Shown here: in pieces, positions 9,001-12,000 of the stretch
Position numbering within the stretch: position 1 is the stretch's first letter
Layout: each line of letters begins with the position of its first letter
Assembly (NCBI RefSeq): GCF_056712565.1
Contig: NZ_CM160072.1
DNA length: 64,000 nt
Reading direction: 5' to 3' (one strand)
Position numbers: made by a program

Positions 9001-12000
9001 CTGCTGCCAGAAATTCAGCCCGACGGCGTTTTGCCGCAGGATGATTCGTTTATGGCTAAGCCGGTGATTAATCTGGCGAAATACAAAGCGGCGGCGGGGA
9101 AGCAAACCATTCTGCTGGATTATTCACGCGCAGAAGTGAACGAGATGCAGATCCTCAAACAAGCTGATGTGGTGATGCTCAATTACATGCTGCCGGAGCA
9201 GTTCTCAGCGGCATCGTGTCTTGCCAATCTGCAATTTTATGAACCGCGCACTATTCACGACTCGTCATTAAGTAAAGCAATCCACGGCATTGTTGCCGCA
9301 CGCTGTGGCCTGCTGACCCAAAGTTATCAGTTCTGGCGCGAGGGGACTGAAATCGATCTTGGTGCTGATCCACATAGCTGTGATGACGGTATCCACGCTG
9401 CCGCAACTGGCGCTATCTGGCTGGGGGCGATTCAGGGTTTTGCCGGGGTGAGCGTGCGTGACGGTGAATTACATCTCAATCCGGCGTTACCTGAGCAGTG
9501 GCAACAGTTGTCTTTCCCTCTGTTCTGGCAGGGCTGCGAATTACAGGTCACTCTCGACGCGCAGCGTATTGCGATTCGAACTTCTGCGCCCGTTTCACTG
9601 CGCTTGAACGGTCAGCTTATTTACGTCGCTGAAGAATCTGTTTTCTGTTTGGGGGATTTTATTTTGCCCTTCAATGGGACCGCTACCACGCATCAGGAGG
9701 GTGAATGAAACTGCAAGGGGTAATTTTCGATCTGGATGGAGTAATCACAGATAGCGCACATCTGCATTTCCAGGCGTGGCAGCAGATTGCCGCTGAAATT
9801 GGCATCAGCATTGATGCGCAGTTTAACGAATTCCTAAAAGGGATCAGCCGCGATGAGTCCCTGCGGCGAATTCTGCAGCACGGGGGTAAAGAGGGCGATT
9901 TTAACCCACAGGAACGGGCGCAACTGGCGTATCGCAAAAATCTGCTTTACGTCCACTCACTGCGCGAACTGACGGTTAATGCTGTGCTGCCTGGCATTCA
10001 CAATTTGCTGGTAGATCTCCGAGCACAGCAGATTCCGGTTGGGCTGGCTTCTGTCTCCCTGAATGCGCCGACGATTTTAGCAGCGCTGGAGCTGCGCGAG
10101 TTTTTCACCTTCTGCGCGGACGCTTCCCAACTCAAAAATTCGAAACCGGACCCGGAAATCTTTCTCGCCGCCTGTGCAGGGCTGGGCGTGCCGCCACAGG
10201 CATGTATCGGCATTGAAGATGCGCAGGCGGGCATTGAAGCCATTAACGCCAGCGGTATGCGCTCGGTGGGGATCGGCGCGGGCTTAACCGGGGCGCAATT
10301 ATTGTTGCCCTCAACGGACTCCCTGACCTGGCCGCGGTTATCGGCCTTCTGGCAAAACGTATAGCAAAGGAATCAACATGGCACAGCTTTCGTTACAACA
10401 TATTCAAAAGATCTACGATAACCAGGTGCATGTGGTGAAGGACTTCAACCTGGAGATTGCCGATAAAGAGTTCATCGTGTTTGTCGGTCCGTCGGGCTGC
10501 GGTAAATCGACCACCCTGCGTATGATTGCCGGGCTTGAGGAGATCAGCGGCGGTGATCTGTTGATCGACGGCAAACGAATGAATGACGTTCCAGCCAAAG
10601 CACGCAATATCGCGATGGTGTTCCAGAACTACGCGCTGTATCCGCATATGACGGTCTACGACAACATGGCGTTTGGCCTGAAGATGCAAAAAATCGCCAG
10701 AGAGGTGATTGATGAGCGGGTGAACTGGGCGGCGCAAATTCTCGGCCTGCGTGAGTACCTGAAACGCAAGCCGGGCGCGCTTTCCGGCGGGCAACGTCAG
10801 CGAGTGGCGCTTGGGCGGGCGATTGTGCGCGAAGCGGGCGTGTTTTTAATGGATGAGCCGCTCTCTAACCTGGATGCCAAGCTGCGCGTGCAAATGCGCG
10901 CAGAGATCAGCAAGCTGCATCAGAAACTGAACACCACCATGATCTACGTGACCCACGATCAGACCGAAGCGATGACCATGGCGACGCGGATTGTCATTAT
11001 GAAGGATGGGATTGTTCAGCAGGTCGGTGCGCCGAAAACGGTTTATAACCAACCTGCGAATATGTTTGTTGCCGGATTTATTGGATCACCAGCGATGAAT
11101 TTTATTCGCGGCACGATCGATGGCGATAAATTCGTTACGGAAACGCTTAAATTAACCATACCCGAAGAGAAATTAGCGGTTCTGAAAACACAGGAAAGTT
11201 TGCATAAGCCCATCGTAATGGGAATACGCCCGGAAGATATTCATCCGGACGCGCAAGAGGAAAATAACATTTCCGCCAAAATTAGCGTGGCGGAATTAAC
11301 CGGTGCGGAATTTATGCTCTACACCACGGTTGGGGGGCACGAGTTAGTGGTCCGTGCTGGTGCGTTAAATGATTATCATGCAGGAGAAAATATCACTATT
11401 CATTTTGATATGACTAAATGTCATTTCTTTGATGCAGAAACGGAAATAGCAATTTGCTAAATACAGGGGGAAGGCATTCTCCTAGGATAATACAAGGAAC
11501 AATAATGAAAAAGTTATTACTCTGTACCGCACTGGTGATGTGTGCGGGAATGGCCTGCGCACAGGCCGAGGAAAAGAACGACTGGCACTTTAATATCGGC
11601 GCGATGTACGAAATAGAAAACGTCGAAGGTTATGGCGAAGATATGGATGGGCTGGCGGAGCCTTCTGTCTATTTTAATGCCGCCAACGGGCCGTGGAGAA
11701 TTTCTCTGGCCTATTATCAGGAAGGGCCGGTAGATTATAGCGCGGGTAAACGTGGAACGTGGTTTGATCGCCCGGAGCTGGAGGTACATTATCAGTTCCT
11801 CGAAAGCGATGATTTCAGTTTCGGTCTGACTGGTGGTTTCCGTAATTATGGTTATCACTACGTTGATGAACCGGGTAAAGACACGGCGAATATGCAGCGC
11901 TGGAAAATTGCGCCAGACTGGGATGTGAAACTGACTGACGATTTACGTTTCAACGGTTGGCTGTCGATGTATAAATTTGCCAACGATCTGAATACGACCG

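What the first reader, a model, noticed from the sequence alone, without database searches (positions are those of the whole stretch)
10378..11460. ycjV ATPase intact here (pseudogene in K-12 by my recollection)
A complete 360-aa MalK-like ATPase with all Walker/signature motifs is encoded, so the YcjNOP ABC importer could be functional in this strain, unlike K-12 where ycjV is annotated as disrupted. Combined with the ycjQ nonsense mutation, the operon shows a different pattern of decay from K-12, suggesting relaxed or strain-specific selection on the pathway.
Basis: partly seen in the sequence, partly recalled or inferred. Interest (0 to 1): 0.3.

Follow-up and report, generated by a model that had tools for sequence, protein, structure and literature searches.

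The report
Intact ycjV sugar-transporter ATPase gene
This E. coli strain carries the normal, unbroken copy of ycjV, the ATP-driven motor of a sugar importer. The broken copy in the laboratory strain K-12 is the exception, so the finding is correct but ordinary.

Summary
Window 10378-11460 (+) is an uninterrupted 360-codon ycjV. It has every ABC-ATPase motif and a MalK-type C-terminal regulatory domain, and it lies between pgmB/ycjU and ompG.

K-12 lacks one G of the G6 run at window 11332-11337. Its product stops after 322 residues, and MG1655 annotates the two halves as pseudogenes ycjV (b1318) and ymjB (b4524).

The intact form is the species norm. Of 5,426 complete E. coli genomes, 4,620 carry the G6 allele. 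Only 371 carry G5, and all but two of the 40 listed are laboratory strains, most of them recognisable K-12 derivatives.

The window differs from the E. coli type strain ATCC 11775 record at four positions in 64 kb. Its ycjQ Q241* (CAA>TAA at 5240) is real and occurs in only 32 genomes, which I recognise as ST95-type strains.

The operon shows long-term purifying selection (dN/dS 0.01-0.12 against K-12). Even so, it is often damaged in single lineages. Seven of 18 sampled genomes carry other lesions in ycjM, ycjN, ycjQ or ycjT. About 7% lack the cluster altogether.

This is already known and of low interest. One idea is worth testing: whether the ycjV frameshift explains why K-12 fails to grow on kojibiose.

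The parts
10378..11460 (+). ycjV, an intact 360-aa nucleotide-binding (ATPase) subunit of the YcjNOP-YcjV ABC sugar importer
   Evidence: ORF and translation. ABC motifs. Pfam ABC_tran + OB_MalK + TOBE_2. NCBIfam UgpC subfamily above cut-off. 100% identical to ATCC 11775 WP_000057991.1.
11332..11337 (+). G6 homopolymer (codons G319-G320), the site where K-12 has lost one G (-1 frameshift)
   Evidence: Pairwise alignment and sequence reads. Allele counts are G5 in 371 genomes and G6 in 4,620 genomes.
10367..10371 (+). Shine-Dalgarno AAGGA, 6 nt upstream of the ycjV ATG and 13 nt after the pgmB stop
   Evidence: Read directly from the sequence.
1466..2758 (+). ycjN, the substrate-binding lipoprotein of the importer, full length with lipobox LISGC
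   Evidence: No internal stop, same length as K-12. Pfam SBP_bac_1/8. N-terminal sequence. Lipoprotein status from PMC11543891.
2779..3660 (+). ycjO, permease subunit, full length
   Evidence: Pfam BPD_transp_1.
3647..4489 (+). ycjP, permease subunit, full length
   Evidence: Pfam BPD_transp_1.
4520..5572 (+). ycjQ pseudogene (D-guloside 3-dehydrogenase). Q241* (CAA>TAA at 5240-5242) falls inside the NAD-binding domain.
   Evidence: Comparison with K-12. ADH_zinc_N spans residues 168-289. PGAP flags 'internal stop' in ATCC 11775. The allele is in 32 of 5,426 genomes.
5591..10364 (+). ycjR, ycjS, ycjT (kojibiose phosphorylase) and pgmB/ycjU (beta-phosphoglucomutase), all full length
1..1452 (+). 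ycjM (glucosylglycerate phosphorylase). The 3' 1,452 nt are present; the gene starts upstream of the window.
9675..9688 (+). TGGGACCGCTACCA, a probable YcjW operator in the 3' end of ycjT, 17 nt before the ycjU start
   Evidence: An identical 14-mer lies upstream of ycjM in K-12. ChIP-seq peaks at these two places are reported in PMC6599011. That this 14-mer is the published motif is my inference.
11505..12410 (+). ompG, the outer-membrane porin and last gene of the operon, full length
12461..13459 (-). ycjW, the LacI-family repressor of the operon
   Evidence: Repressor function from PMC6599011.

Best explanation
Window 10378-11460 is the ordinary, ancestral, functional-looking allele of ycjV. 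This gene encodes the MalK/UgpC/MsmX-type ATPase of the YcjN (lipoprotein binding protein) - YcjO/YcjP (permeases) - YcjV ABC importer. The importer belongs to the YcjW-repressed ycjMNOPQRSTUV-ompG glucoside-catabolic operon.

By analogy with MalFGK2, a YcjV dimer would dock on YcjO/YcjP and use ATP binding and hydrolysis to drive import of an alpha-glucoside. Candidate substrates are kojibiose, glucosylglycerate or a guloside, entering through the OmpG porin. The TOBE/OB C-terminal domain would hold the dimer together.

K-12 differs because one G was lost from a G6 run. That slip replaces the last 40 residues, which are conserved as far as Bacillus MsmX, with two wrong residues and a stop.

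This strain belongs to the E. coli type-strain lineage (ATCC 11775), which I recognise as ST95. It has independently lost ycjQ through Q241*. That should remove only the guloside-to-glucoside branch. The transporter and the two phosphorylase branches remain intact.

Shown here: gene integrity, motifs, the K-12 lesion, allele frequencies and dN/dS. Inferred: that the importer assembles, its substrate, and the phenotypic consequences.
For: The ORF is intact with all motifs and domains.

It aligns end to end (residues 1-359) with the solved MsmX structure 6YIR at E = 8e-148, and this alignment includes the segment K-12 loses.

The K-12 lesion is mapped to the G6 run and is annotated as ycjV/ymjB pseudogenes.

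G6 occurs in 4,620 genomes and G5 in 371; all but two of the 40 G5 genomes listed are laboratory strains, most of them recognisable K-12 derivatives. ycjV is full length in 18 of 18 sampled diverse genomes.

Natural strains 'strain 10', MLI108K1 and ET220 carry exactly the K-12 protein allele with the G restored, WP_000057985.1. So the frameshift is very recent.

That same protein is 3 substitutions away from the window's protein. It was purified and retains ATPase activity (PMC7658222).

ycjV dN/dS against K-12 is 0.028, and 0.01-0.12 across the operon. The partner genes ycjN, ycjO and ycjP are intact.
Against: No expression or transport data exist for this strain, and the ligand of YcjN is still unknown (PMC11543891).

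The premature stop in ycjQ could reduce downstream transcription through Rho-dependent polarity. This is untested.

The operon is tightly repressed by YcjW under laboratory conditions.

E. coli YcjV could not energise heterologous Bacillus importers. That result says nothing about its cognate partners.
Confidence: 0.9

Rival explanations
1. ycjV is intact but irrelevant in practice. The gene is structurally sound, but the cluster is cryptic or on its way out in this lineage. It would be repressed by YcjW, have no substrate in the niche, and suffer polarity from ycjQ*. The intact ORF would then reflect only too little time for decay.
For: ycjQ is already dead in this lineage. 7 of 18 sampled genomes carry lesions elsewhere in the cluster. 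About 7% of genomes lack the cluster entirely, and others have IS1 deletions. The operon is strongly repressed by YcjW.
Against: ycjV dN/dS is 0.028, and ycjV is full length in 18 of 18 sampled genomes, including those with lesions in other genes. A probable YcjW operator just upstream of ycjU marks a second regulatory site close to ycjV. Loss of ycjQ should spare the kojibiose and glucosylglycerate branches.
Confidence: 0.25
2. The intact-versus-broken difference has little phenotypic weight, because a paralogous CUT1 ATPase (MalK or UgpC) can energise YcjOP in K-12.
For: UgpC and MalK of E. coli are functionally exchangeable, as summarised in PMC7658222. YcjV scores well against both the UgpC and MalK models.
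Against: Hybrid transporters were less efficient. Exchangeability depends on the NBD-TMD interface, and YcjV and MalK failed to replace MsmX. MG1655 fails to grow on kojibiose minimal medium, which is consistent with no effective uptake.
Confidence: 0.15
3. The difference is a homopolymer sequencing or assembly artefact in one of the two sequences.
For: The lesion lies in a G5/G6 run. Within this same window, two single-base indels distinguish it from the ATCC 11775 record.
Against: All 371 G5 genomes match the 49-base K-12 probe (370 of them at 99% identity or more), including the MG1655 reference, and 4,620 other assemblies agree on G6.
Confidence: 0.01
4. The intact allele here is a secondary reversion of an ancestrally frameshifted gene.
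For: Homopolymer slippage is reversible in principle.
Against: G6 is found in 4,620 of 5,426 genomes and in all 18 diverse genomes sampled. The C-terminal 40 residues align with Bacillus MsmX. Only 1 synonymous and 1 non-synonymous change lie downstream of the run between this strain and K-12.
Confidence: 0.01

Closest known systems
E. coli K-12 MG1655 ycjV (b1318) / ymjB (b4524) pseudogene pair
   Same: Orthologous locus between ycjU/pgmB and ompG. There are 31 substitutions over 1,083 nt, of which only 3 change an amino acid (R108K, A232S, C360R).
   Different: K-12 lacks one G of the G6 run. Its product is 322 aa (320 native residues plus T and S) and lacks native residues 321-360. The window gene is uninterrupted.
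E. coli YcjV WP_000057985.1, studied by Leisico et al. 2020 (PMC7658222)
   Same: Full-length 360-aa YcjV, 357 of 360 residues identical to the window protein. Reported to accumulate as a stable protein and to retain ATPase activity.
   Different: It has three substitutions and is the K-12-type haplotype with the G restored. It was tested only with heterologous Bacillus permeases, which it could not energise.
Bacillus subtilis MsmX (PDB 6YIR), a multitask CUT1 ATPase
   Same: Best solved relative, aligned over residues 1-359 at E = 8e-148 with the same domain order. The paper gives 64% identity to YcjV.
   Different: MsmX is an orphan ATPase serving several importers. ycjV is encoded inside one operon with its presumed partners. 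The charged residues D77, R104, E110 and K154 proposed as a multitask signature are not conserved in YcjV.
E. coli MalK (maltose importer MalFGK2)
   Same: Same fold and motif set, with an OB/TOBE regulatory C-terminal domain. It is the mechanistic template.
   Different: YcjV scores 429 bits against the MalK equivalog cut-off of 568, so it is not MalK. The paper gives MalK as 45% identical to MsmX, against 64% for YcjV. Nothing indicates that YcjV interacts with MalT or EIIA-Glc.
UgpC (sn-glycerol-3-phosphate importer ATPase)
   Same: YcjV passes the NCBIfam UgpC 'subfamily' model at 484 bits against a cut-off of 432.
   Different: That is a subfamily-level model, not an equivalog. The genomic context here is carbohydrate catabolism (ycj operon), not ugpBAEC.

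Membership tests
ABC type I importer nucleotide-binding subunit (CUT1 / MalK-UgpC-MsmX type) | Walker A, Q-loop, LSGGQ signature, Walker B, D-loop and H-loop, all present and in order | tested here: met
   GPSGCGKS at 37, Q83, LSGGQ at 135, VFLMDE at 155, SNLD at 163, THD at 192. Pfam ABC_tran E = 1e-31.
ABC type I importer nucleotide-binding subunit (CUT1 / MalK-UgpC-MsmX type) | C-terminal regulatory/dimerisation domain (OB_MalK + TOBE) | tested here: met
   OB_MalK at 236-288 and TOBE_2 at 282-351. Full-length alignment to MsmX 6YIR and MalK structures.
ABC type I importer nucleotide-binding subunit (CUT1 / MalK-UgpC-MsmX type) | Curated family score threshold | tested here: met
   NCBIfam NF008653 (UgpC subfamily) scores 484.1 bits against a cut-off of 432.
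MalK proper (maltose importer ATPase, NCBIfam NF008233 equivalog) | Score at or above the equivalog cut-off | tested here: not met
   429 bits against a cut-off of 568. It works like MalK but is not MalK.
ABC type I importer nucleotide-binding subunit (CUT1 / MalK-UgpC-MsmX type) | ATP hydrolysis, and energising of cognate permeases YcjO/YcjP with binding protein YcjN | not testable with these tools
   ATPase activity is reported for a 99.2%-identical YcjV (PMC7658222). Coupling to YcjNOP has never been shown.
ycjV orthologue of E. coli | Conserved position between pgmB/ycjU and ompG in the ycjMNOPQRSTUV-ompG operon, with high identity to K-12 ycjV | tested here: met
   Gene order matches K-12 and ATCC 11775. 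31 substitutions over 1,083 nt against K-12.
   -1 deletion in the G run. 'Frameshifted' in AML001_par. ycjV/ymjB pseudogenes in NC_000913.3. 'Pseudogene ycjV locus' is used as an integration site (PMC10380740).

The most novel reading that the evidence does not exclude
The ycjV frameshift may be the reason K-12 MG1655 cannot grow on kojibiose as sole carbon source, and the reason no substrate has yet been assigned to the YcjNOP importer. If so, natural strains with intact ycjV, such as this type-strain lineage, would import and grow on kojibiose and/or glucosylglycerate despite the dead ycjQ. All of ycjN, O, P, T, U, V and ompG are intact here. Repairing one G in K-12 would then unlock the phenotype.
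Probability: 0.25. Interest if true: 0.4.

Novelty: already known. Interest (0 to 1): 0.12.

Why it matters
The main value is as a caution. Work on the ycj pathway has been done largely in K-12, including the enzymology, the YcjW regulon and the YcjN structure. K-12's importer lacks an intact ATPase. Negative growth or uptake results in K-12 may therefore not represent the species. The type strain, or K-12 with one G restored, would be a better host for finding the transported substrate. Beyond that, the locus is a routine example of an accessory catabolic operon that is conserved over the long term but repeatedly inactivated in single lineages.

Tried and rejected
1. A 55-mer carrying the K-12 ycjQ wild-type allele matched only 2,641 genomes, because flanking SNPs break the 28-nt megablast word in other lineages. 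I did not use it as a frequency. Instead I built the wild-type version of the window's own 55-mer, which gave 246 exact matches against 32 carrying the stop.

2. The promoter and terminator scan of 9300-12600 found no more sites than shuffled sequence, and none on the + strand near ycjU or ycjV. I therefore make no claim of an internal promoter and report only the operator-like 14-mer.

3. The Raushel-lab paper on kojibiose phosphorylase (PMC5953851) is not held. Its growth result is cited second-hand through PMC6599011.

4. A position-by-position comparison with the ATCC 11775 record reported thousands of mismatches after window 51955. This was caused by a 1-nt indel. A proper alignment leaves only 4 differences in 64 kb.

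5. Sequencing artefact and reversion were both considered and rejected on the allele counts.

6. I did not run structure prediction or large protein-database searches. The identity of the gene was never in doubt.

Full report
**Observation.** Window 10378-11460 (+) is a single ATG-to-TAA ORF of 360 codons. An AAGGA ribosome-binding site lies 6 nt upstream, 13 nt after the pgmB/ycjU stop. The product has the complete motif set of an ABC ATPase: Walker A GPSGCGKS at 37, Q83, LSGGQ at 135, Walker B VFLMDE at 155, D-loop SNLD at 163 and H193. Pfam finds ABC_tran, OB_MalK and TOBE_2. NCBIfam places it above the cut-off of the UgpC subfamily model (484 against 432 bits) and below the MalK equivalog cut-off (429 against 568). 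It aligns over residues 1-359 with the solved Bacillus subtilis MsmX structure 6YIR at E = 8e-148. The gene is real and intact, at exactly the stated coordinates.

**Origin of the window.** The ycj block (window 1-12410) is 100% identical to E. coli ATCC 11775 / DSM 30083, the type strain, record NZ_CP033092.2. Over the full 64 kb only four differences exist: two substitutions and two single-base indels outside the operon. That record annotates the gene as an intact 'ABC transporter ATP-binding protein', WP_000057991.1, and annotates ycjQ as a pseudogene with 'internal stop'.

**The K-12 lesion.** Aligning the window gene with a K-12 derivative gives 31 substitutions and one 1-nt gap. The window has GGGGGG at 11332-11337, gene positions 955-960, codons G319-G320. 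K-12 has GGGGG. K-12 therefore reads ...TTVGG-TS-stop. Its product is 322 aa and lacks native residues 321-360.
- MG1655 (NC_000913.3) has the identical sequence and annotates the two halves as pseudogenes ycjV (b1318) and ymjB (b4524).
- The lost segment (HELVVRAGALNDYHAGENITIHFDMTKCHFFDAETE...) aligns with the C-terminus of MsmX. It is a conserved part of the regulatory/dimerisation domain.
- Strain-engineering papers routinely call this 'the pseudogene ycjV locus' and use it as a neutral integration site.

**Which state is unusual.** I used short probes centred on the run. A genome with the other allele cannot supply the 28-nt seed these probes need.
- The G5 (K-12) allele occurs in 371 of 5,426 complete E. 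coli genomes. All but two of the 40 listed are laboratory strains, most of them recognisable K-12 derivatives such as MG1655, DH10B, BW25113, JM109, HB101 and MC4100. The other two are bovine isolates from Okinawa.
- The G6 allele occurs in 4,620 genomes.
- ycjV is detectable in 5,001 genomes.
- In 18 genomes taken from across the similarity ranking, ycjV is full length in all 18.
- Three natural strains ('strain 10', MLI108K1, ET220) encode WP_000057985.1, which is exactly the K-12 protein allele with the G restored. The K-12 frameshift is therefore a very recent slip on an otherwise ordinary haplotype.
- Intact ycjV is the ancestral and normal condition.

**Function.**
- *What the literature shows.* The operon ycjMNOPQRSTUV-ompG is repressed by the LacI-type regulator YcjW. 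ChIP peaks lie before ycjM and between ycjT and ycjU, and kojibiose releases YcjW from DNA in vitro (PMC6599011). [quoted passage not shown] YcjQ, YcjR and YcjS interconvert glucosides and gulosides through 3-keto intermediates (PMC11543891; RefSeq product names). YcjN is a diacylated lipoprotein binding protein whose ligand is still unknown.
- *Biochemical evidence for YcjV.* WP_000057985.1 differs from the window protein only by R108K, A232S and C360R. It was expressed, accumulated stably and retained ATPase activity, although it could not replace MsmX on Bacillus permeases (PMC7658222).
- *Inference.* By analogy with MalFGK2, a YcjV dimer energises YcjO/YcjP to import a glucoside delivered by YcjN after passage through OmpG.
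- *State of the partners.* In this window ycjN (with lipobox LISGC), ycjO, ycjP, ycjR, ycjS, ycjT, pgmB and ompG are all full length.
- *Regulatory site.* A 14-mer, TGGGACCGCTACCA, lies at 9675-9688 in the 3' end of ycjT. An identical copy lies just upstream of ycjM in K-12. This coincides with the two reported ChIP peaks and is probably the YcjW operator. That assignment is my inference.

**The ycjQ lesion.** Q241* (CAA>TAA, window 5240) lies inside the ADH_zinc_N (NAD-binding) domain, residues 168-289. It should abolish the enzyme.
- The allele occurs in 32 of 5,426 genomes. They include ATCC 11775 and its JCM copy, S88, APEC O1, MS7163, SF-468, SF-088 and several O1/O2:K1:H7 avian strains. 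From my own knowledge these are ST95; I did not test this here.
- The same 55-mer with CAA occurs exactly in 246 genomes, including 536, F11 and SF-173.
- Strain VTB96815v has a ycjV 100% identical to the window's but is not among the 32. The stop is therefore younger than the local haplotype.
- Loss of ycjQ should remove only the guloside branch. The transporter, the kojibiose branch and the glucosylglycerate branch are untouched.

**Selection.** Nei-Gojobori dN/dS between this phylogroup-B2 sequence and K-12 is 0.012-0.12 for every gene. It is 0.028 for ycjV (28 synonymous, 3 non-synonymous changes) and 0.040 for ycjQ. The cluster has been under purifying selection over the long term, and both pseudogenes are too young to have accumulated extra damage.

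At the tips of the tree, however, inactivation is common.
- The whole block is at least 80% present in 4,943 genomes, gives no match in 389 and is partial in about 94.
- In RIVM_C039629, ycjM through ycjW is cleanly absent, with pspE abutting ycjX. Four listed genomes share the same endpoint just after pspE, and 405 of the 5,422 genomes with a match cover less than 80% of the pspD-ycjM probe.
- One strain has an IS1-bounded deletion from ycjM into ycjV.

Of the 18 sampled genomes, 7 carry lesions elsewhere:

| Strain(s) | Lesion(s) |
|---|---|
| H22 | ycjN Q43* |
| 2014C-3338 | 42-nt in-frame deletion in ycjQ, over the GxGxxG region |
| 01_3327 | ycjM stop, plus a +5-nt frameshift in ycjQ |
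| O111 110512 | the same ycjM stop, plus a ycjT stop |
| ET220 | a different ycjM stop |
| PNUSAE008406, CEC13004 | ycjM -1 frameshift, plus a ycjN stop |

There is one caveat. PGAP flags several other pseudogenes in this same 64-kb region of the type strain, so I cannot say the rate exceeds background.

**Rivals.**
- *Sequencing artefact.* Excluded by hundreds of concordant K-12 assemblies and thousands of concordant G6 assemblies.
- *Reversion.* Excluded by the distribution of G6 and by conservation of the C-terminus.
- *Intact but idle.* This remains open. The gene may be repressed, affected by polarity from ycjQ*, or without a substrate in the niche.
- *Paralogue substitution.* Also open. 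In K-12, MalK or UgpC may partly replace YcjV, because those two ATPases are exchangeable with reduced efficiency.
- *The one lead worth a bench test.* MG1655 cannot grow on kojibiose as sole carbon source, and a ycjW deletion does not help. That paper has no stand-alone mention of ycjV, so it does not appear to discuss the frameshift. A missing importer ATPase is an obvious candidate cause. The type strain, or K-12 with one G restored, would test it directly.

**Verdict.** The K-12 pseudogene is in the reference annotation, and the intact protein from other strains has already been used experimentally. The finding is already known and of low interest (0.12).

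Noticed in passing
window 51955 and 57526 (ydbH 49539-52178; autotransporter ORFs 53070-57545 and 57560-61384): The window differs from the ATCC 11775 record NZ_CP033092.2 by four changes in 64 kb: substitutions at 16012 and 47355, an extra T at 51955 and a missing A at 57526. With the extra T, ydbH is an intact 879-aa ORF here, whereas the record annotates it 'frameshifted'. With the missing A, the 2,771-aa autotransporter adhesin that is intact in the record splits into two ORFs here. Both indels look like assembly or homopolymer differences between two sequencings of one strain.
   Followed up: partly
L006 (NZ_CP086616.1) 7297-9127; window 1-13459 is the equivalent block: The whole ycjM-ycjW block is a presence/absence polymorphism. 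No part of window 1-12410 is found in 389 of 5,426 genomes. In strain RIVM_C039629, pspE is followed directly by ycjX. Four listed genomes share the same endpoint just after pspE. I did not identify which lineages lack the block.
   Followed up: partly
L005 (NZ_CM139232.1) 7838-9231: Giant-panda isolate DXMF6-3R has an IS1A element replacing everything from mid-ycjM to about position 850 of ycjV. Only the TOBE-domain tail of ycjV remains upstream of ompG.
   Followed up: no
L008, L011, L014, L019, L023, L024, L025 (ycj clusters of other strains): Independent inactivating lesions occur in ycjM (three different sites), ycjN (two sites), ycjQ (two further lesions besides Q241*) and ycjT. They affect 7 of 18 sampled genomes, while ycjV is intact in all 18. 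ycjM and ycjQ seem to be hit most often.
   Followed up: partly
L004 (NZ_AP042480.1) 8069-9150: Two bovine isolates from Okinawa (OkiPb01676 and OkiPb01710, 5.2-5.3 Mb genomes) also carry the G5 frameshift. The OkiPb01676 ycjV differs from K-12's at 5 positions clustered at 694-852. The cause could be an independent slip at the same G run, recombination, or a homopolymer assembly error.
   Followed up: partly
window 9675-9688 (+): TGGGACCGCTACCA lies inside the 3' end of ycjT. It is identical to a copy 26 nt upstream of the ycjM start in K-12 (L001 1370-1383). These are probably the two YcjW operators seen by ChIP-seq. At up to 2 mismatches, 34 of 100 shuffles of the window gave at least one match to the 14-mer, so the argument rests on the exact identity of the two copies and their positions, not on statistics.
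   Followed up: partly
window 20387-21025 (-): An intact 212-aa SDR-family oxidoreductase lies between mpaA and ycjY. K-12 has only a 138-nt remnant at this position, annotated 'NAD-dependent dehydratase, incomplete'. This is a second gene in the window that is whole here and a pseudogene in K-12.
   Followed up: no
window 12411-12460: The ompG-ycjW intergenic region is 50 nt here and 110 nt in K-12. K-12 may carry an extra repeat (REP-like) element there, or this strain may have lost one. I did not examine it.
   Followed up: no
window 31669-33183 (+), 40984-41585 (-), about 39399-39757: PGAP annotates further pseudogenes in the matching type-strain record: a DHA2 MFS efflux permease ('frameshifted', although the window shows a 504-aa ORF), a metal ABC transporter permease fragment, and integrase/DUF1627 remnants next to ttcA that suggest a decayed prophage or island.
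   Followed up: no
window 11455-11457 (codon 360 of ycjV): The last residue of YcjV is Cys in this lineage and in H22, but Arg in K-12 and in most other sampled strains. It is a lineage-specific C-terminal substitution of unknown consequence.
   Followed up: no
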